A program made the translations under genes and the position numbers. The notes beneath the pieces are model-generated. The model was not told the origin of the DNA. It did no database searches and saw only the letters and a program-made list of their open reading frames with translations. Below are positions 7,005-51,809 of a stretch of DNA of 64,000 nt, piece after piece. How positions within the stretch are numbered: position 1 is the stretch's first letter; each line of letters starts with the position of its first letter. Source of the DNA: Escherichia phage V18; sequence record NC_041937.1; one strand, written 5' to 3'.

Positions 7005-7682
7005 TTAGTGTGGTCCACTTGTCTCGCCATCAGGGCAAGAGTGGGTATGACCTTTATATTCTGCATAGAATGAATCCAAATCCACACCAGCAGCAGTTAT
7101 AATTCTACCAGATGGGTCTATTGTGGCACCATTCATTCTGATATTTCCATCCACAGCAGCTCGCAAATTGGCAGCCCCATTAGTGAAAGAAAACTCCCCA
7201 CTGCTGTCGCACCGTAATGTCCCACCAGGTGTTTGAAGCTCAAAATCGCCAGAAGGTGTCAGTTTAAAATAAACCCTATCATTCCATAACTCTACGTTAT
7301 CAGGATCGATCTGTAAAGAGTTTGAGTCTGAATGAACAGAGGTGATTGCCCACCCTGGAAACAGGCCGTGAGTTTGTTGATCGTCGTTATTGTTTTCATT
7401 TCTCTCTGAAAACTGCAATCCTACAACATCTCCGGCCTTAATAGGAAGTGTTAACCTTGCCTTTCCGCTGTTTGCAGACATCACCTGAATTGGAACGTCA
7501 TAGATAAGAGGGTATCTCTCCACATCTCCGTCATCAAACGTGGTTTCAGCTATTGGCTGCACGGCTGCAGAAGGAATACTGTAGTCAACACTGACAACTC
7601 TGGCCCTGATGCTGGTGTGGTAGTCCCTCATTATTTTTTCTATAAAGGATCTTACAGCAGCGTCTTTCCTATTTATTGCCAT
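7005..7682 (-). CDS. putative baseplate central spike (gpV-like)
   Basis: 225 aa; beta-rich repeat region and His-rich C-terminal tip (YKGHTHSCPDGETSGPH) typical of spike tips; GAGGAGG RBS upstream. Confidence 0.5.
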   Translation of the reverse strand: MAINRKDAAVRSFIEKIMRDYHTSIRARVVSVDYSIPSAAVQPIAETTFDDGDVERYPLIYDVPIQVMSANSGKARLTLPIKAGDVVGLQFSERNENNNDDQQTHGLFPGWAITSVHSDSNSLQIDPDNVELWNDRVYFKLTPSGDFELQTPGGTLRCDSSGEFSFTNGAANLRAAVDGNIRMNGATIDPSGRIITAAGVDLDSFYAEYKGHTHSCPDGETSGPH

Positions 7683-7685
7683 TAT

Positions 7686-8679
7686 ACCTCCTCAGTTTTG
7701 TCAACAACTCCACCCACTGTTTCCCCAAGGCCAAGCTCTGTAGTGTAATCACCGCCTTCTATGGTGCCCTTATGATGCACCGTGATCACCTTATAGAAGC
7801 CTGTATATTGCTTGCTTTTAAGATAAATAGTGGACTCTGGGAGGATAGCTCCGTTAAGGCATGTGGTTACAGTAAGACCGACATCCTCTCTCGGGTTTTT
7901 CTTTTTCTTACGTGTGCCACCTTTCGCAGCAGCTTTAGCTTTTCGTTTTTTAGCAGGCTCGGGGTTTTTAGGGTGGGAGATCCGTGCATCCCAGACTCTG
8001 CACTTATTTCAAACACAGAGTCCTTGAACCTTTTTCCAACCTTGGTCCAATACAAAGCCCCATCCTGAACGCTAAATGTGGAGTTGGTCAGTCTTGCAAA
8101 CCTGCGGAGGTTCTCTGCAGTGTTTCCAGAGAAAGCCATAGAGTATTGCAAAGTCTGGTTTCCAAAACCAACAACCCTACCTTTTGGCAAGTTCATATCC
8201 TTCAGTAGGTCATTAAGCACAGAGTTCAGAGGTGTGCCTTTCTGATAAGATCTTGTGCTTTGGCACTTAATGATGTTCTCAGTACCATCCCCGAAGATGA
8301 ACTTAGTTTTTCTGGTCGGACCTTCCCATCTGTCTTCAACAAACTCTACAGTTCCGGAGAATATCAACTGGTTCTCATCATCATAGCCAGCTTCAAACAT
8401 AACTGCAAGGGCATCAGCCTGATGCATATCCAGATAGTTAACTGTATCGTCAGACAGGTTGTAAACTGTCACATAACCTTTGTTTGGCTCTTTGGTATTG
8501 TCCTTTTGTATGTCAAACTCTATATTGGCGGCACCAGTGTCTGAGCTAACTTCATAAACTCCGGAATCACTCTCCCCTTTCTTTTCAACAGATTTTGGGA
8601 TATTGGTTTTTGATTTACCGCCATGCTCTACCGGACGACCAAACAATAATCGCCATGTTCTACGTCTGTACTCTGCCAT
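7686..8679 (-). CDS. putative baseplate/tail protein, apparent frame change near 7930-7990
   Basis: 270 aa ORF 7867-8679 ends in an implausible basic tail; another frame stays open to 7686 and encodes a Lys/Ala-rich linker plus C-terminal domain. Confidence 0.4.
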
Positions 8680-10059: not shown

Positions 10060-11559
10060 TTACCAAAGGTCGGTAGACATGAAGTTGATATCTTTGCTGT
10101 TCTCCCACTCAAGTTTTGCATCAAGTATTTTGCTAAACTCACCCTCATCTATGGAAAGCGTGATTTTCCCATCACTGATCTCTAAAGGTAGCATTTCCAT
10201 AGTTCTTAATTGAGAAGCAAAACCAGGGCCACCTGGCAACGGAAGAGTCCCGCCCGGCAAAGTGTCCAAAGGATTAACAAACCCGTTACCTCCCGATATG
10301 ATATCTTTGCGAATCATATCGCTGATAGTATCCAGTTGCTGATTTCTTTCACTCAGTGGGTTGAAACGGTCATTAAATAATTCCCCGGCGCTTAATATTG
10401 TACCGATAATGCCCAGCTTGCCGAGCAGACCAACTTTACCACCAGGTGTCTTGAGGCCACCTCCACCTTTTCCTGCCGCGCCACCACTACTAGATCCTTC
10501 TGCAGTAGCGGCACCCGCTGCTCCAGCTGCACCCCTTAGAGAGTTAAGGAATTTAAAGGTTTTTACAAGCATAGATGCCATGACAAAACCTTTTGTTAGG
10601 GCGTTGACTACCAGCATGATGGCAGCAGCAAACCCTGCCCATTTAGCATAGCTAAAGGTGTCATGAAGCTCTTCAGAATATTCCTTCGTCTTAGCTGTTA
10701 TGAATCCCCATTTAATCCCCCATTCAAGGAAAAACATGCGGATCTTGACTATAGTGTTGTTTAGTTCACCAACTACCCAGTTAAGGCCTCTCACAAACCC
10801 ACTAACAAAATCACCAGAGGCATCCCACACAAATTGCAGAGTCTCACCAGTGCGGATTAATGTATAATAGAACTCTGTTAGTTCGTCAGACCAACGGGTG
10901 AACAGTTTCTGACGAGTCAGTTCGATGAAGGTTTTCAGTCTGTTTTCTGCCAGCACGTTAGACTTCTGCATTCTTTCATAACCAGCTGCAGATGCCTCGT
11001 TCATGTACTTAGCCACATACTTCATGATCTTGGCTGTTTTAACCTCACCTTTCTTCATCATGTCCATGAACTGATCCATGGATAGTTCAGAAAGACCAAA
11101 AGCCTCTTTAGTGGCCTTGATAAAAGGTTCGTATGCACCAGGCAAGGCTTCAGCAAGTTGTTGCTTCAGTTCTTCGGACATTACTTGTCCCTTGCCAAGC
11201 ATCTGTTGGATTGCCATAATACCGCGCTGGTATTTTACCTCATCAGCACCATAAGCAGCAGCATACTGGGAGTATGCAGAAAACAGCTCATGCACTTCCT
11301 GATTTGTCATCTGGTTTTTGGCGTTTACCGACATCTGGGCGTAACCTTGAAGACCAGATTTGAGATCAAAACCAAGACGCATAGCCTCTTGCTGGACAAA
11401 CGCAACCTCACTGTTGGCTTTGTTTGGATCTCCAGTAACAGCAGTAAGAGCAGCACTTGCCCCCTCCATCATGTGACCGGATCTGTTAACCGCAGCAAAT
11501 CCAGAAAAAGCTGTATACGCAGCTGTTGCATTAATAACAGATCTACGTAAGTCTCTCAT
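10060..11559 (-). CDS. tape measure protein
   Basis: 499 aa; long helical protein with hydrophobic segment and Gly-rich stretch (GAAGAAGAATAEGSSSGGAAGKGGGG); sits after tube and chaperone genes. Confidence 0.65.
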   Translation of the reverse strand: MRDLRRSVINATAAYTAFSGFAAVNRSGHMMEGASAALTAVTGDPNKANSEVAFVQQEAMRLGFDLKSGLQGYAQMSVNAKNQMTNQEVHELFSAYSQYAAAYGADEVKYQRGIMAIQQMLGKGQVMSEELKQQLAEALPGAYEPFIKATKEAFGLSELSMDQFMDMMKKGEVKTAKIMKYVAKYMNEASAAGYERMQKSNVLAENRLKTFIELTRQKLFTRWSDELTEFYYTLIRTGETLQFVWDASGDFVSGFVRGLNWVVGELNNTIVKIRMFFLEWGIKWGFITAKTKEYSEELHDTFSYAKWAGFAAAIMLVVNALTKGFVMASMLVKTFKFLNSLRGAAGAAGAATAEGSSSGGAAGKGGGGLKTPGGKVGLLGKLGIIGTILSAGELFNDRFNPLSERNQQLDTISDMIRKDIISGGNGFVNPLDTLPGGTLPLPGGPGFASQLRTMEMLPLEISDGKITLSIDEGEFSKILDAKLEWENSKDINFMSTDLW

Positions 11560-12395
11560 GCATCGCCTAGTGTAAGCGTTTGGCTGGTGGCACTTTTAAA
11601 TCCAGACTGCAGTGCTGACAGGTGGGCGTTAAAGGTTGACTTTTTCATCTCCCCGCGAGCAAACCTGGACTCTAACTCTGAGTATCCTGGCAAGCTTCCA
11701 CGGAATCCGGCCCCATACTTGGCAGAAAGTCTTATCGCGGAGTTGTAGAGGTGGGTTCTTCTTGCCTCACGATCCGACATAAGCCTATTATCCATACCAG
11801 CTTTACCGTCCCTTCTTAGCTGTCTATGATAACGATTCATAGCAGCTGTCTGAGCTTTTACAAGATTAGGGTCGGAAGCCACACCACCCATATTAGGGTT
11901 ACCGGGGATATATTTGAAAGCTTTGGCATTAGCCAGAACTCTTGCCTTAGGTGCCTTATAACCGCCGTAAGACACTGGTGCAGATTTGGCAGCCTTTTTG
12001 GCCTCTTTAGCTTGCTGCTGGTAGAACTTACGCATCCTAGCCATTTCTGGATTTTTAGCGGTAAGATTACCTACAGCTTGTTTACGTCTCGCATTCTCCC
12101 TACGTTCTATTGCAGCCCTTACTGCAGCCTCTTTCTTGGCCTGTGCTACGCTCTCCCTGTGCAGCTTAGCATTTGCCTGAGATTGCTGTCTGGCAACCCG
12201 CTGCATTGTCTGCTGGGTTTTAACAGCTACCGCCTGCCATCTACTCATGGGGTTGGCTGAGTTAAAATCCTCACCTAGTTTCCTGAACTCCCTCCCAATA
12301 CTGCGAATTTTCTCTACAGCTTTTTTGTAGGAGGAGTTCTCTATCTCAAAGCCAATCTTGTTGACTGTTGTGGCAACTATTTTGTTTGTAGCCAT
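11556..12395 (-). CDS. tape-measure-associated basic coiled-coil protein (possibly N-terminal part of the tape measure)
   Basis: 279 aa Lys/Arg/Ala-rich helical protein; its stop overlaps the next start (ATGA). Confidence 0.5.
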   Translation of the reverse strand: MATNKIVATTVNKIGFEIENSSYKKAVEKIRSIGREFRKLGEDFNSANPMSRWQAVAVKTQQTMQRVARQQSQANAKLHRESVAQAKKEAAVRAAIERRENARRKQAVGNLTAKNPEMARMRKFYQQQAKEAKKAAKSAPVSYGGYKAPKARVLANAKAFKYIPGNPNMGGVASDPNLVKAQTAAMNRYHRQLRRDGKAGMDNRLMSDREARRTHLYNSAIRLSAKYGAGFRGSLPGYSELESRFARGEMKKSTFNAHLSALQSGFKSATSQTLTLGDA

Positions 12396-12405
12396 GGTTT
12401 CCTCA

Positions 12406-12444
12406 TAATAAAAAGGGCCAGATCCCAGAAAAGGAATCCGGCCC
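12406..12444 (-). terminator. rho-independent terminator candidate
   Basis: GC-rich imperfect hairpin (GGGCC...GGCCC) followed by TTTTTATT on minus strand. Confidence 0.4.
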
Positions 12445-12449
12445 TTAGA

Positions 12450-12698
12450 TTATCCTCTCCTGCGCTTAGCTTTCGCAGCAGCTGCGGCAGCCTTCTGCTC
12501 CCGCTCCATTTCCCTGTTTTGGACGGTATCTAGGAATTCTTCGATATCAAGATACTCACAGAGCTTCAGGAAATACGCCATATCTGCAAGATTTAGCGAT
12601 TCAAAATTTTCCCCTTTGAAATTCTTGAGCACCCTGCACCAAAGAAAGTCGAACCAGTTGAGTGAACTGTTCTTGGCTGCCCACTCACTGGCCCTCAC
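12450..12698 (-). CDS. putative tail assembly chaperone (T-like ORF)
   Basis: 82 aa ORF with GTG start, in -1 frame relative to upstream 157 aa ORF, between tube and tape measure genes. Confidence 0.4.
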   Translation of the reverse strand: MRASEWAAKNSSLNWFDFLWCRVLKNFKGENFESLNLADMAYFLKLCEYLDIEEFLDTVQNREMEREQKAAAAAAKAKRRRG

Positions 12699-12709
12699 AA
12701 CAACCTTAC

Positions 12710-13183
12710 TTATTCCTGCTCTTCCGGAGTCTGATCCAGGTTGTTCACCTGCTGAATCATACCCATCTGCTGTAACATCTCCAGAAGGCTTCCTAAACCG
12801 TCTTGTGTGAAAAAACAGCCGTAGTTAACCTCCAGAACCTTACCTGCCAGCTTAATCATCTCCAGCAGATGCCCTGCAAACACAACATCTGGGTTAAGCT
12901 TATCCACACCATCTACGGTAATATCTTCGAACAAGATTTTAAATAACTCTTCAATAGAGCTATCATCAAGTTCTTGGAACAGGTAAGCCAGAGCAGTAGG
13001 AAGGACCTCTGCCATATTCTGACCACCAGAGATAATAGATCCACCGATAGCACCTAGCGGGACAGCCACAATCTTACCGATTTTAGGCATGTTTTTCATT
13101 GCTTTCATCGGTCCCCAGTGGGTGATCACAAAGTTGTGCCCTGCTAAATCAATCTCTGTTGTAGGTCTAAAGTTTATAGCCAT
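12710..13183 (-). CDS. putative tail assembly chaperone (G-like)
   Basis: 157 aa acidic protein between tube and tape measure genes; preceded by sigma70-like promoter. Confidence 0.45.
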   Translation of the reverse strand: MAINFRPTTEIDLAGHNFVITHWGPMKAMKNMPKIGKIVAVPLGAIGGSIISGGQNMAEVLPTALAYLFQELDDSSIEELFKILFEDITVDGVDKLNPDVVFAGHLLEMIKLAGKVLEVNYGCFFTQDGLGSLLEMLQQMGMIQQVNNLDQTPEEQE

Positions 13184-13209
13184 TTTATAGCATCCTTATT
13201 AGTCATGTT

Positions 13210-13249
13210 GTGCACCATATTTGTGTATTTTACCATGATTATGGTGCAT
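13210..13249. repeat. inverted repeat bracketing promoter -10 region
   Basis: GTGCACCATA (13210-13219) and TATGGTGCAT (13240-13249), 9/10 complementary. Confidence 0.45.
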
Positions 13250-13255
13250 TGTCAA
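13227..13255 (-). promoter_or_regulatory. sigma70-like promoter for chaperone/tape-measure genes
   Basis: Minus strand TTGACA-N17-TAAAAT; flanked by inverted repeat GTGCACCATA / TATGGTGCA(T). Confidence 0.45.
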
Positions 13256-13295
13256 TTTAACCTTTCAAGCAATTCAAGAACGTGTGTCAAAACCA

Positions 13296-13328
13296 TAAAA
13301 GCAAAAAGCCCCACCCGAAGGTGAGGCT
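13296..13328 (-). terminator. rho-independent terminator after tail tube gene
   Basis: Hairpin AGCCTCACC-TTCG-GGTGGGGCT followed by TTTTTGCTTTT on minus strand. Confidence 0.5.
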
Positions 13329-13345
13329 TATGCTAAAGTGTGCCC

Positions 13346-13819
13346 TTAGATAATACCTGCAAGACCTGCGAGGCCAGTAAGAGCACCAGTGATGTTATCA
13401 CGGTTGAGCCATGCATCCAGAATACCGATATCCCAGTCCAGCTGACCTACTTCGGTTCCGTAAGTCAGGTCAGGCTGTTTCTGGATCCAACCAATTGTGG
13501 AAATACCAGGGCCCTGGCTACCTTCCAGCAGAACCGGGAAGAATACCAGGCCAGTAATCGATGCCTGTTTCTGCCAGTCAGAAAGGTAAGCGTTCCATAC
13601 AGAAGTGTTCTGCAAAGACACGGTCATAACACCAGATTGGTTACGAGACAGAGCTGCAGACATTTCACCATCCACACCGACGTGAGGATAAATGTTGTCT
13701 TCGTTTCTTGAAACAACAATCTTGGTGTCAGCAGCGAAGCCAGTGACACGCTGCTGCATCAGATACAGTTTGACCTTTTTAGGGTCATACGCATAAGGAG
13801 TTAAAATTTGAGTTTCCAT
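13346..13819 (-). CDS. tail tube protein
   Basis: 157 aa ORF immediately downstream of sheath gene, followed by hairpin terminator. Confidence 0.6.
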   Translation of the reverse strand: METQILTPYAYDPKKVKLYLMQQRVTGFAADTKIVVSRNEDNIYPHVGVDGEMSAALSRNQSGVMTVSLQNTSVWNAYLSDWQKQASITGLVFFPVLLEGSQGPGISTIGWIQKQPDLTYGTEVGQLDWDIGILDAWLNRDNITGALTGLAGLAGII

Positions 13820-13829
13820 CTAGGCTTCC

Positions 13830-15206
13830 TTATTCAGTCATTGCAACAGCATTGGTGGATTTAGAACCAACTTTGTCCAGAAGGACGTTGATCCGGATAC
13901 GAACGAAGTGCAGGGCGTTGTTATACACCAGTTCTACTTTCACACCTTCCAGAACACGAGCAGCCAACTGATTGGTTGGAATCTCTGCACGTTTAGGAAC
14001 TGTGATGATCGGGTCGTAGAACACATTGTTGTCTTCGTCAAAACCTGTCAGGATCGCACCATTCTTAATGCCAGTGTTGATTGGGTTGTTCATCAGGACA
14101 GACTTGATAACCGGAAGATCATCATCAGACATCTTCATGCTTAAACCCATGTTGGAGCGACGATGCATGTACCCAAACATAGATTCTTCAGATCTGAACT
14201 TGATCCAGTGTGCAAAACGAATAGCGTCTGCATACTGACCTGAAGCACACTTGCCTTCCCAGAAAGCACCAACACCGTTAATCATTCTGTAGAAGTTAAC
14301 GTGGTTTTCCCAAATCGCCATACGCTGAGTTAAAGTCATAGATGGTGCAATCACACCCGGCATCTGTTTTAAGTGCAAGCTGTCACCGTAAGACGGATCG
14401 TTGGATGCCATAGCGCCTACGATACCACCCTCTGGAAAATCTTTATCAGCACGAGGATCGTACATGCCAACACTGTCATATTGTGCAGCCATCAGTTTGG
14501 TGGCAATGTTATTATCTTTACCAGTCACATCTTCTGCAGTAGAGTAGACATGCAGCTTGTAGTTAGCCTGAGCCCACTTAGCACATGCTTCAATGTCGGT
14601 GTGGTCTTCATGGCACAGGAAGTACCAATTGTCACGCTCAGCATTGATCTTATCAACTACTGTAGAAGGTTTTTCAGCATTGGCGATATTTTTGATTGTA
14701 TAGTTACCAGTATGGTAACCAACAGTACAGTCACCCGTGATGGTGATAACACCTTCAGAAGCCTCTACAGTGATATCGTCCAAGTTATCATCTGCTTCGA
14801 TTTTAGTCTTCATTGACTCTGCAATCTGAGTTGCACCTGTTCCACCAGAGATAGGCACTATCAAAGAAGTATTGTAGCTACCTTTTGCAATAGTCATTAC
14901 GACATCGGTATCAGCTGCGGCAGCAATACCTTTAAAATCTACAGTGGTCTTTTCTTTGGCCTGTCTGCCGATCATAACGTATTGTGGAGGGAATACACCA
15001 CCAAAAGCTTTTGCTGCAAACTCATACGCTGCAGAGCCTTGTGCGAAACCATCTTCCACCATCTGATCCAGCTCTGCATATACGCGAGCTCGCTCAGTAA
15101 AGTTGTTGTGGATAGCGATGAACAGGGGAGTTTCGAAACCTACAGTGTCAATAGGCTGGGTTCCGAGGTTAACTGTAACATCTACCACTTTATCTAAATA
15201 TGGCAT
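13830..15206 (-). CDS. tail sheath protein
   Basis: 458 aa ORF preceding tube gene; size, position and composition fit contractile-tail sheath proteins. Confidence 0.65.
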   Translation of the reverse strand: MPYLDKVVDVTVNLGTQPIDTVGFETPLFIAIHNNFTERARVYAELDQMVEDGFAQGSAAYEFAAKAFGGVFPPQYVMIGRQAKEKTTVDFKGIAAAADTDVVMTIAKGSYNTSLIVPISGGTGATQIAESMKTKIEADDNLDDITVEASEGVITITGDCTVGYHTGNYTIKNIANAEKPSTVVDKINAERDNWYFLCHEDHTDIEACAKWAQANYKLHVYSTAEDVTGKDNNIATKLMAAQYDSVGMYDPRADKDFPEGGIVGAMASNDPSYGDSLHLKQMPGVIAPSMTLTQRMAIWENHVNFYRMINGVGAFWEGKCASGQYADAIRFAHWIKFRSEESMFGYMHRRSNMGLSMKMSDDDLPVIKSVLMNNPINTGIKNGAILTGFDEDNNVFYDPIITVPKRAEIPTNQLAARVLEGVKVELVYNNALHFVRIRINVLLDKVGSKSTNAVAMTE

Positions 15207-15263: not shown

Positions 15264-15445
15264 ACACAATTATAACGATTACTGACCACTGTCTGTAACC
15301 GCTTTACCAGAATTGGGTGAAGGGAAGTGTGTGGTTATTTCAGCCTTAATTCCCTGAAGATCCTCAAAAGCCCCAATGTCTGTTTCAACAAACCTTACGT
15401 TAAATGTCAGCATCACAGTGGCTCTATTTTCATACGTCTGCTTAT

Positions 15446-15829
15446 TCAACGGCACTCTTTGAGGTGAGATTGTTGAATTGTTAGAGTAGGCAAAGCACGA
15501 TCCAGAGGGAAATACTTATCATAAAACATTGGAAGGTTTATTGCTTGCAATACTCTGCTAAGTGCAGCATATGCCCTGCCACGATAAGCTGTTAGCAGAT
15601 AGGTAACAGTGTAACTGTGGGTGACACAAGCATTACCCTCCGCATCTTGAAACTCATTATCTTCCCAAGTGGTAGGATTGATCGCCAAGGTTTGTAAAAG
15701 TACAAACTCACCTTCCGGCTTCGGTATGGTAGAGCTTTCTGCCAGAACTACAGTTCTTCCTGTGGCAACCTTGACGAGCTTAGCAATGGTTGTTTCAAGA
15801 TCAGAAAAAACTTTTTCGAAAGCTTCCAT
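15446..15829 (-). CDS. hypothetical head-tail joining/completion protein
   Basis: 127 aa ORF in coupled array between capsid and sheath genes. Confidence 0.4.
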   Translation of the reverse strand: MEAFEKVFSDLETTIAKLVKVATGRTVVLAESSTIPKPEGEFVLLQTLAINPTTWEDNEFQDAEGNACVTHSYTVTYLLTAYRGRAYAALSRVLQAINLPMFYDKYFPLDRALPTLTIQQSHLKECR

Positions 15830-51021: not shown

Positions 51022-51809
51022 ATGGGTCGAGCTAAAGAAACAAAACGCATGCGTGATGAAGCTAGAGAGGCTCGCAAATCTGATCGCCTGCGTAAGGCTG
51101 CTGAGAAATTTGCTGACGAACGAGAGCACACTGCTCCAGCTCTCCGACCAATGAATAAGAAGCAGCAAAAGTATCTTGATTACCTAGGGTCGCGTAAAAT
51201 TATCATTGTAAACGGAGTGTTTGGGTCTGGTAAAACATTCATGGCATCTGCTATGCAGGTGACCTTCTGCGTAAGAATGAAATTGATAAGATCATTGTTG
51301 CACGTCCTTACGTTCAGACAGGAAAGACTTCAGGATTTAAACCTGGAAATGCAATGCAGAAACTGTGGCCCTATCTTCGAAGCATGATGGACACGATTTG
51401 TCGTCGTGTTGGCAAAGGTGCTTTTGCCGCAATGCTGGGAGACGGTCAGAACAGCCGTATCGAGATTTGTGAAGTTGAAAGCATTCGTGGTCGTAGTTTC
51501 GATGAGCGATGCTTTGTCCTGATTGACGAGGCACAGCAAACTAACCCTGAAGAAATGTTGTCAATTATCACAAGGATCTCTGATCAAGCCACCCTTGTAA
51601 TTATGGGTGATAATAGCCAACGTGACATCCCTGGTAAATCTGGCCTTGCATGGGTGACGGATTTCTTTACTCGTCATCCAGATCCTGAGGTTGGAATGAT
51701 CAGCTTTGATAGTCCAGACGATGTCGTTCGTTCTGGGTTGGGTCGTCAGATCGCACTCAATCTTATTGAGGATCGTGCAAATCATATTTGGACCCCTGTT
51801 TCCGAGTAA
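51022..51809 (+). CDS. phoH: PhoH-like ATPase, frame change near 51250
   Basis: Walker A GVFGSGKTFMA in first ORF; second frame gives KIIVARPYVQTGKTSGFKPGN ... FVLIDEAQ. Confidence 0.65.

What the first reader, a model, noticed from the sequence alone, without database searches (positions are those of the whole stretch)
12450..13183. Chaperone gene pair in G/GT-like arrangement (second ORF in -1 frame), without an obvious slippery heptamer
Between tail tube and tape measure genes lie a 157 aa ORF and an 82 aa ORF that starts with GTG and is in the -1 frame relative to the first, with no in-frame stop for about 30 nt upstream. This mirrors the conserved programmed -1 frameshift that yields G and GT chaperones, but no canonical X-XXY-YYZ heptamer was seen near the end of the first ORF.
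Basis: partly seen in the sequence, partly recalled or inferred. Interest (0 to 1): 0.35.

Follow-up and report, generated by a model that had tools for sequence, protein, structure and literature searches.

The report
Frameshifted tail chaperone gene pair
This is the ordinary two-gene tail-assembly chaperone of an rV5-like coliphage.

Summary
The window comes from an rV5-like E. coli myophage (Vequintavirus).

**What is there.** On the minus strand, between the tube gene and the tape-measure gene, lie two ORFs:
- a 157-aa ORF (13183..12710), which matches Pfam Phage_TAC_15;
- an 82-aa GTG ORF (12698..12450) in the -1 frame.

- The -1 frame is open for 124 codons (from 12824), not about 30 nt upstream of the GTG.
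- A canonical X_XXY_YYZ heptamer, T_TTT_TTC (12815..12809), sits three codons after that frame opens. It is the only in-frame heptamer in ORF1.

**Evidence from relatives.**
- The heptamer is kept in phase in 14 of 15 GenBank relatives, 5 of 5 further loci, 29 of 29 IMG/VR loci and Felix O1. ORF1 identity in these falls as low as 28-29%.
- The one exception, a Rheinheimera phage, has lambda's G_GGA_AAG instead.
- The codon before the Phe-Phe pair changes (TGT, TCT, CCT, AGT) but always ends in T.
- Identical-codon use among same-residue pairs rises from 0.44 to 0.999 at the site.
- The conserved downstream domain has no conserved start codon.

**Conclusion.** This is a lambda G/GT-type -1 frameshift giving 17-kDa and 27-kDa products. 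None of the 18 records I inspected annotates it. The same motif was recently proposed for two sister clades. It is a routine new member of a known kind, and no experiment has tested it in this clade.

The parts
13227..13255 (-). Sigma-70-type promoter-like site (TTGACA, 17 nt, TAAAAT with TG) upstream of ORF1. It corresponds to promoter P51 in the rV5 RefSeq annotation.
   Evidence: 11 of 12 matches; rV5 annotation.
12710..13183 (-). ORF1, the short chaperone form (G-like, or TAC-N): 157 aa, 17.2 kDa, acidic. It is the product of standard decoding.
12829..12833 (-). Shine-Dalgarno-like GGAGG, 13 nt upstream of the heptamer. It is a candidate dnaX-type upstream stimulator. It also encodes part of Leu-Glu-Val, so coding alone could explain its conservation.
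   Evidence: GGAGG at the same 13-nt spacing occurs in 9 of 27 non-redundant lineages, including Felix O1; 11 of 27 have no SD-like match.
12809..12815 (-). Slippery heptamer T_TTT_TTC (zero-frame codons TGT TTT TTC = Cys123 Phe124 Phe125). This is the proposed site of tandem tRNA-Phe -1 slippage.
   Evidence: only in-frame heptamer in ORF1. Conserved. Identical-codon fraction 0.999 at codons 123-125. U_UU.U_UU.C is among the shift-prone motifs measured in E. coli (PMC4066793).
12710..12808 (-). Region that is coding in both frames. The zero frame gives the 32-aa tail found only in the short form (TQDGLGSLLEMLQQMGMIQQVNNLDQTPEEQE). The -1 frame gives a basic motif (HTRRFRKPSG) followed by a Gly/Ser/Asp-rich linker.
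   Evidence: Identical-codon fraction is 0.66 and 0.63 here against 0.44 upstream. AlphaFold2 pLDDT is below 50 for residues 124-157.
12450..12809 (-). The -1-frame continuation (T-like part): 119 codons plus the stop. Together with ORF1 codons 1-125 it gives a predicted 244-aa, 27.1-kDa fusion (GT-like, or TAC-NC).
   Evidence: PHROG 10409, E 9.6e-51. Alignment of the conserved domain.
12413..12446 (-). Intrinsic-terminator-like hairpin followed by a T run, directly after the -1-frame stop.
   Evidence: annotated as a terminator in rV5.

Best explanation
The locus encodes the tail assembly chaperone of an rV5-like myophage and yields two products from one start codon.

**Proposed decoding**
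- Most ribosomes read ORF1 to its stop and make a 157-aa, 17-kDa short form.
- At T_TTT_TTC (12815..12809) a minority of ribosomes slip back one base. The P-site and A-site tRNA-Phe re-pair from UUU-UUC to UUU-UUU.
- These ribosomes continue in the -1 frame for 119 codons to the stop at 12452..12450.
- The result is a 244-aa, 27-kDa fusion: the chaperone core (residues 1-125), a basic motif, a Gly/Ser-rich linker and a conserved domain of about 80 aa.

**Proposed function, by analogy with lambda gpG/gpGT and P2 E/E+E'**
- The shared N-terminal part would coat the tape-measure protein.
- The -1-frame domain would recruit the tube protein.
- Neither product would end up in the virion.

**Shown here:** the ORFs, the frames, the heptamer, its conservation, and family membership.
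**Inferred:** that the slip actually occurs, how efficient it is, and the protein-protein contacts.
For: - **Family and position.** ORF1 is a Phage_TAC_15 / PHROG 3840 tail assembly chaperone. It lies between the sheath and tube genes and the tape-measure gene.
- **The site.** There is one in-frame X_XXY_YYZ in ORF1, T_TTT_TTC. It sits three codons after the -1 frame opens, and that frame stays open for 124 codons.
- **Conservation of the arrangement.** The same layout and the same heptamer in the same phase occur in 14 of 15 GenBank relatives from eight or more genera. They also occur in 5 of 5 further loci, four from metagenomes and one Klebsiella phage, in 29 of 29 IMG/VR loci and in Felix O1 (29% identity, E 7e-12). 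ORF1 identity falls to 28%. Rheinheimera phage Barba19A instead has G_GGA_AAG. From my own knowledge that is the lambda G/GT slip sequence, and it is not a homopolymer run.
- **Constraint on a silent position.** The codon before Phe-Phe encodes Cys, Ser or Pro (TGT, TCT, AGT, CCT) but always ends in T. Phe-Phe is always TTT TTC.
- **Codon-level conservation.** The fraction of same-residue pairs using the identical codon is 0.44 over codons 1-110, 0.999 at codons 123-125, and 0.66 and 0.63 in the overlap.
- **No conserved start for the downstream domain.** In at least seven lineages no ATG, GTG or TTG precedes the domain's conserved N-terminal part. Gene callers give homologues of 43-102 aa with varying truncations.
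- **Motif is known to shift.** U_UU.U_UU.C is among the shift-prone heptamers in E. coli and is used by IS elements (PMC4066793).
- **Structure.** AlphaFold2 places the slip site at the end of the confidently folded core, with pLDDT below 50 from residue 124.
Against: - There is no protein-level evidence. The rV5 genome and proteome paper does not mention a frameshift or chaperone.
- No significant or conserved downstream RNA structure was found. The z-score is about 0 in the window and most relatives; only phiA009 has a strong hairpin.
- The upstream SD-like GGAGG is absent from 11 of 27 lineages.
- In this phage the GTG at 12698 has a weak AAGG six bases upstream and lies 11 nt after the ORF1 stop. 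Some independent initiation or re-initiation cannot be excluded.
- No naturally fused single-ORF homologue was found that would prove the two parts work as one chain.
Confidence: 0.9

Rival explanations
1. There are two independent genes. ORF2 is translated on its own from GTG 12698, by its own weak ribosome-binding site or by termination-reinitiation after the ORF1 stop. The 9-kDa product acts as a free protein, and the long -1 overlap is incidental.
For: The GTG lies 11 nt after the ORF1 stop, with AAGG six bases upstream. Every database record I inspected annotates separate genes.
Against: - The start codon is not conserved in position. In pEa55, VLCpiM5a, PcCB7V, PBES02, EF1-1, Eryne and Barba19A no start codon precedes the conserved N-terminal part of the domain.
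- The -1 frame is free of stops for about 100 nt upstream of the ORF1 stop in more than 45 loci.
- Codon-level conservation rises exactly at the heptamer.
- The AAGG is part of conserved coding sequence (Ser-Lys-Val).
Confidence: 0.05
2. The same fusion is made by transcriptional slippage. RNA polymerase adds an extra U in the T6 run, so a minority of mRNAs carry ORF1 and the downstream part in one frame.
For: The site is a homopolymer run. One extra U would give the identical protein.
Against: - The run is exactly six T in every lineage and never longer.
- From my own knowledge, efficient slippage by bacterial RNA polymerase generally needs longer runs.
- The run is always in the X_XXY_YYZ phase, which transcriptional slippage does not require.
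- Barba19A substitutes G_GGA_AAG, which cannot support homopolymer slippage.
Confidence: 0.04
3. The arrangement is a chance feature or a sequencing artefact. This window does contain several single-base deletions that split other genes.
For: Single-base deletions relative to all close relatives split the baseplate hub, tape-measure, gp054-like and PhoH-like genes of this window.
Against: The 12300-13400 region has no indel relative to rV5 and is 100% identical to two deposited genomes. The arrangement is present in all relatives.
Confidence: 0.01

Closest known systems
Phage lambda gpG/gpGT (Levin 1993; Xu, Hendrix and Duda 2004, 2013, 2014; summarised in PMC5009743)
   Same: - The gene pair lies directly upstream of the tape-measure gene.
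- The second ORF is in the -1 frame.
- There is an X_XXY_YYZ heptamer and no requirement for a strong downstream structure.
- The predicted outcome is a major short product and a minor fusion.
   Different: - The heptamer is T_TTT_TTC, not G_GGA_AAG.
- The host phage is a contractile-tailed myovirus.
- There is no detectable sequence similarity to gpG; the Pfam family is Phage_TAC_15.
- The slip site lies 34 codons before the ORF1 stop. The short form therefore has a conserved private tail of 32 aa, and about 100 nt are read in two frames.
TAC-N/TAC-NC locus of Vandenendeviridae (Pseudomonas phage Adele) and Andersonviridae (Felix O1, Moogle), proposed -1 frameshift at an invariant GTTTTT (PMC12846349, 2025)
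   Same: - The Felix O1 chaperone is homologous (29% identity, E 7e-12).
- It has the same ...N[YF]G.FF motif and the same T_TTT_TTC in the same phase.
- It also has GGAGG 13 nt upstream.
- The argument used in that paper, a stop-free -1 frame across all alleles, is the same as here.
   Different: - That paper covers those two families, not Vequintavirinae or Stephanstirmvirinae.
- The base before the T run is G only in some lineages here; it is C in phi92-like phages and in L017.
- The overlap is longer in rV5-like phages: 103 nt from the heptamer to the stop, against 40 nt in Felix O1.
Phage P2 E / E+E' (Christie et al. 2002; from my own knowledge, with the efficiency remark in PMC5009743)
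   Same: It is a myovirus tail chaperone pair between the tube and tape-measure genes, with a T-rich heptamer and a -1 shift.
   Different: P2 uses T_TTT_TTG (from memory, not checked here). No sequence relationship was tested.
E. coli dnaX -1 frameshift (upstream Shine-Dalgarno-like sequence plus downstream hairpin)
   Same: An SD-like GGAGG lies 13 nt upstream of the heptamer. From memory, that is within the spacing range reported to stimulate -1 shifting.
   Different: No downstream hairpin was found. The SD-like element is not conserved across the family.

Membership tests
G/GT-type tail assembly chaperone with programmed -1 frameshift (Xu et al. 2004) | The gene pair lies between the major tail or tube gene and the tape-measure gene. 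| tested here: met
   Order on the minus strand: sheath 15206..13830, tube 13819..13346, ORF1, ORF2, tape measure 12395..10060.
G/GT-type tail assembly chaperone with programmed -1 frameshift (Xu et al. 2004) | The second reading frame overlaps the 3' end of the first in the -1 frame. | tested here: met
   The -1 frame is open from 12824 to 12453 and overlaps ORF1 by 115 nt. The +1 frame is open for only 12 codons.
G/GT-type tail assembly chaperone with programmed -1 frameshift (Xu et al. 2004) | A slippery sequence in the correct zero-frame phase lies inside the overlap. | tested here: met
   T_TTT_TTC at 12815..12809 is the only in-frame heptamer in ORF1.
G/GT-type tail assembly chaperone with programmed -1 frameshift (Xu et al. 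2004) | The overlap and the slip site are conserved in diverged homologues. | tested here: met
   Conserved in 14 of 15, 5 of 5 and 29 of 29 loci plus Felix O1; one lineage has G_GGA_AAG. Codon-level conservation peaks at the site.
G/GT-type tail assembly chaperone with programmed -1 frameshift (Xu et al. 2004) | The downstream part has no start of its own, so it is expressed only as a fusion. | tested here: inconclusive
   No start codon is conserved, and several lineages have none before the conserved domain. This phage, however, has a GTG with a weak AAGG upstream.
G/GT-type tail assembly chaperone with programmed -1 frameshift (Xu et al. 2004) | Both the short and the fused proteins are made, at a fixed low ratio. 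Both are needed for tail assembly and both are absent from virions. | not testable with these tools
   This needs western blotting, mass spectrometry or genetics. The rV5 proteome paper does not mention either protein.
Pfam PF21822 Phage_TAC_15 | The score is above the curated gathering threshold. | tested here: met
   83 bits against a cut-off of 22, E 3.3e-23, covering profile positions 2-125 of 127. All 73 homologues carry PF21822.
Tail assembly chaperone fold (solved examples: HK97 2ob9, YqbN 3klu) | Structural similarity of the ORF1 core to solved tail assembly chaperones. | tested here: inconclusive
Andersonviridae/Vandenendeviridae TAC-N/TAC-NC frameshift locus (PMC12846349) | A homologous chaperone with a conserved poly-T slip motif near the 3' end of TAC-N, and a stop-free -1 frame through to the end of the locus. 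| tested here: met
   Felix O1 alignment, E 7e-12. The same heptamer and phase. The window reads ctGTTTTTTc.
dnaX-type stimulated -1 frameshift | A conserved downstream stem-loop or pseudoknot 5-9 nt after the heptamer. | tested here: not met
   z = -0.17 for the 116 nt from the heptamer to 12700, z = +0.37 and -0.59 for the 50 and 80 nt after it. No structure is shared among relatives.

The most novel reading that the evidence does not exclude
The slip site lies 34 codons before the ORF1 stop. About 100 nt are therefore read in two frames, and both readings are conserved.
- The short form carries a private, conserved acidic tail of 32 aa (...DG[FL].xLxxLLxxMGMxxQVNxxDQ).
- The long form replaces that tail with a conserved basic motif (FFHERRFRRPSG) and a linker.

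The most novel reading is that this short-form tail has a function of its own, for example capping or competing at the site where the long form engages the tube protein. The two forms would then be functionally antagonistic, not simply 'chaperone' and 'chaperone plus adaptor'. In the rV5 and Felix O1 lineages the GGAGG 13 nt upstream might tune the ratio between them.
Probability: 0.2. Interest if true: 0.4.

Novelty: new member of a known kind. Interest (0 to 1): 0.2.

Why it matters
**Annotation.** None of the 18 rV5-like, Felix O1 and related records I inspected joins the two ORFs. The downstream part is called 'hypothetical protein' with arbitrary starts, or is left uncalled. Adding the ribosomal-slippage join at T_TTT_TTC would correct annotation across Vequintavirinae, Stephanstirmvirinae and related genera.

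**Evolution.** One slip site, with synonymous positions frozen, has been kept from Felix O1-like through rV5-like and phi92-like phages to an Aeromonas phage. One lineage has swapped it for the lambda heptamer.

**Mechanism.** There is no new mechanism here.

Tried and rejected
- **Downstream stimulatory RNA structure.** I folded the 116 nt from the heptamer to 12700, and the 50 and 80 nt after it, in the window and 15 relatives. z-scores were near zero and no structure was shared; only phiA009 has a hairpin, at z = -3. Rejected as a conserved feature.
- **Upstream SD-like stimulator.** It is present in the window but in only part of the family, and it is confounded by coding. Kept only as a candidate.
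- **Naturally fused homologues.** I searched with the conceptual 244-aa fusion, with the 82-aa ORF in the word-indexed database and in the exhaustive representative library. No fusion of 200 aa or more was found. The few long hits were multi-stretch matches to large repetitive proteins.
- **Sequence search against solved structures.** Nothing was significant.
- **Other 'frameshift-like' sites in the window** (T_TTA_AAC at 51336, A_AAA_AAC at 7951, TTTCCCT at 15512). All three lie in genes split by single-base deletions that only this window has. They are not programmed sites.
- **Literature.** No paper in the library describes this frameshift for rV5-like phages.

Full report
**Origin of the window**

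The 1.1-kb stretch around the finding is 100% identical to Escherichia phages rV5_ev168 and rV5_ev158, and 99.7% identical to rV5 itself (genus Vequintavirus). All the relevant genes are on the minus strand.

In transcription order they are:
- a sheath gene (15206..13830; PHROG 205, Pfam DUF3383);
- a tube gene (13819..13346; Pfam KPP10_Orf10);
- a terminator-like hairpin and a near-consensus sigma-70 promoter-like site (13255..13227);
- ORF1 (13183..12710);
- ORF2 (12698..12450);
- a second terminator-like hairpin (12446..12413);
- the tape-measure gene (12395..10060).

The rV5 RefSeq record annotates the same promoter and terminators.

**Checking the observation**

ORF1 (157 aa, ATG start) and ORF2 (82 aa, GTG start) exist as described, and ORF2 is in the -1 frame. 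Two details are wrong.

- The -1 frame is open from 12824, not from about 30 nt upstream of the GTG. That gives 124 sense codons and overlaps ORF1 by 115 nt.
- ORF1 does contain a canonical heptamer. T_TTT_TTC lies at 12815..12809 in the phase TGT TTT TTC (Cys123-Phe124-Phe125). It sits three codons after the last -1-frame stop (TAA, 12827..12825) and is the only in-frame X_XXY_YYZ in the ORF.

A -1 slip there gives a 244-aa, 27.1-kDa product, against 157 aa and 17.2 kDa from standard decoding.

Taken alone, this one sequence is only moderately unusual:
- The upstream -1-frame stop density (0.118 per codon) gives p = 0.008 for the 39 stop-free codons between the heptamer and the GTG.
- Codon-order shuffles leave the last 37 codons stop-free 3% of the time.
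- Shuffles place an in-frame heptamer in that stretch 22% of the time.

**What the proteins are**

ORF1 matches Pfam PF21822 Phage_TAC_15 (83 bits, cut-off 22) and PHROG 3840, 'tail assembly chaperone'.

The -1-frame part matches only PHROG 10409, of unknown function.

**Comparative evidence**

I fetched the locus from the following sources:
- 15 GenBank relatives. They cover Vequintavirus, Seunavirus, Henunavirus, Mydovirus, Avunavirus, Certrevirus, phi92-like Justusliebigvirus and relatives, Aeromonas Plateaulakevirus and Rheinheimera Barbavirus. ORF1 identity runs from 99% down to 28%.
- 5 further loci, four from metagenomes and one Klebsiella phage.
- 29 IMG/VR loci.
- Felix O1.

The results were consistent across them.

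- In every case the -1 frame is open across the ORF1 stop, for 106-149 codons. The +1 frame is closed in the window and in most of the 15 GenBank relatives where it was checked (6-52 codons).
- T_TTT_TTC is present in the zero-frame phase inside the overlap in 14 of 15, 5 of 5 and 29 of 29 loci, and in Felix O1.
- The exception, Barba19A, has G_GGA_AAG. From my own knowledge, that is the lambda G/GT heptamer.
- The residue before Phe-Phe varies: Cys TGT, Ser TCT or AGT, Pro CCT. Its codon always ends in T, and Phe-Phe is always TTT TTC.

One caveat applies. One of its two search patterns contained the NYGCFF peptide. That biases the sample toward the amino-acid motif, but not toward the codon choice.

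Among 27 non-redundant sequences I measured how often pairs with the same residue use the identical codon. The fraction is:
- 0.44 over codons 1-110;
- 0.999 at codons 123-125;
- 0.66 over codons 126-140;
- 0.63 over codons 141-157.

Extra constraint therefore begins at the heptamer, as expected if the second frame is decoded from there.

**No independent start for the downstream domain**

I aligned the -1-frame peptides from the slip site onward. The alignment shows three parts:
- a conserved basic motif, FF[HR][EQ].RFR..;
- a variable linker rich in Gly, Ser, Thr and Asp;
- a conserved domain of about 80 aa, ...A.EYA.KNSSL.W[FY]DY....

Candidate start codons are scattered. In pEa55, VLCpiM5a, PcCB7V, PBES02, EF1-1, Eryne and Barba19A, no ATG, GTG or TTG precedes the conserved N-terminal part of the domain.

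Database gene calls for this ORF reflect that. They are 43-102 aa long, or the ORF is not called at all. No naturally fused single-ORF homologue was found.

**Mechanism**

The simplest reading is tandem slippage of two tRNA-Phe from UUU-UUC to UUU-UUU. U_UU.U_UU.C belongs to the class of heptamers that are shift-prone in E. coli (H_HH.U_UU.Y), and IS elements use it (PMC4066793).

I found no significant or conserved downstream structure. From my own knowledge, lambda G/GT does not need one either.

An SD-like GGAGG lies 13 nt upstream, at 12833..12829. It recurs at the same spacing in 9 of 27 lineages, including Felix O1. It is absent from 11 of 27, and it overlaps conserved Leu-Glu-Val codons. 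I keep it only as a candidate stimulator.

Transcriptional slippage is unlikely. The run is always exactly six T and always in heptamer phase, and one lineage replaces it with a sequence that is not a homopolymer run.

The functional roles are inferred from lambda (PMC5009743) and were not tested here. In that model the N-terminal core binds the tape-measure protein and the -1-frame domain recruits the tube protein.

**Comparison with what is known**

This is a G/GT-type chaperone frameshift, a long-established feature of long-tailed phages.

A 2025 paper on Pseudomonas phage Adele proposed a conserved -1 frameshift at an invariant GTTTTT in the homologous locus of Vandenendeviridae and Andersonviridae. 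The latter family includes Felix O1-like phages. The paper notes that these families are related to Vequintavirinae, but it does not extend the claim to them (PMC12846349).

I confirmed that the Felix O1 chaperone is homologous (E 7e-12) and carries the identical heptamer.

The frameshift appears unrecorded for this clade:
- The rV5 genome paper does not mention it.
- None of the 18 records I inspected joins the ORFs.
- No paper in the library describes it for rV5-like phages.

It is therefore a new member of a known kind, and the main value is annotational.

One mildly distinctive feature is the position of the slip site, 34 codons before the stop. The short form keeps a conserved private tail of 32 aa, and about 100 nt are read in two frames.

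**Caution about this window**

This sequence carries single-base deletions, relative to all close relatives, that split four genes:
- the baseplate hub gene;
- the tape-measure gene;
- the gp054 homologue;
- the PhoH-like gene.

Three other 'heptamer plus long -1 ORF' sites in the window are by-products of these deletions. The chaperone locus has no such indel.

Noticed in passing
window 10060-12395 (-), indel near 11560: The tape-measure gene is split into 279-aa and 499-aa ORFs that overlap by ATGA. The window lacks one base that rV5 has (rV5 reads GGC GAT GCC ATG AGA). None of 114 related records shares the deletion: the best hits span 202 nt for the 201-nt query. This is probably a sequencing error, or else a mutation private to this genome.
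   Followed up: yes
window 15279-15829 (-), indel near 15502: The homologue of rV5 gp054 (183 aa in rV5) is split into 127-aa and 58-aa ORFs by a single-base deletion relative to rV5.
   Followed up: partly
window 51022-51809 (+), indel near 51251: The PhoH-like gene is split into 121-aa and 151-aa ORFs by a one-base deletion relative to phage slur16 and other relatives (871 nt against 872). A T_TTA_AAC heptamer at 51336 makes it look like a programmed frameshift site, but the arrangement is an artefact of the deletion.
   Followed up: yes
window 7600-8100 (-): The baseplate hub gene (8679..7867) ends early, and the -1 frame stays open for 87 codons after an A_AAA_AAC at 7951. The best-matching relatives have 502 nt or more for the window's 501, so this is another indel private to the window. 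I did not locate its exact position.
   Followed up: partly
window ~10049: There is a two-base deletion relative to rV5 in the stretch between the tape-measure gene and the next gene.
   Followed up: no
GenBank records MG0656xx: Between 18 and 23 records named 'Campylobacter phage', with host Campylobacter jejuni, are 99-100% identical to rV5-like coliphages across this locus. Most are unannotated. The host labels look doubtful.
   Followed up: no
L017/L018 1-1444; L012 2132-2770: Homing-endonuclease-type genes are inserted into the tail module of some relatives. A DUF723 protein lies directly upstream of the chaperone gene, where relatives have the tube gene, in a gut-metagenome relative at 74% identity. 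An HNH endonuclease lies between the -1-frame ORF and the tape-measure gene in Rheinheimera phage Barba19A.
   Followed up: no
window 12413-12446 and 13227-13329 (-): The chaperone pair is bracketed by terminator-like hairpins and has its own near-consensus sigma-70 promoter-like site. It appears to be a separate small transcription unit between the tube and tape-measure genes, as in the rV5 annotation.
   Followed up: partly
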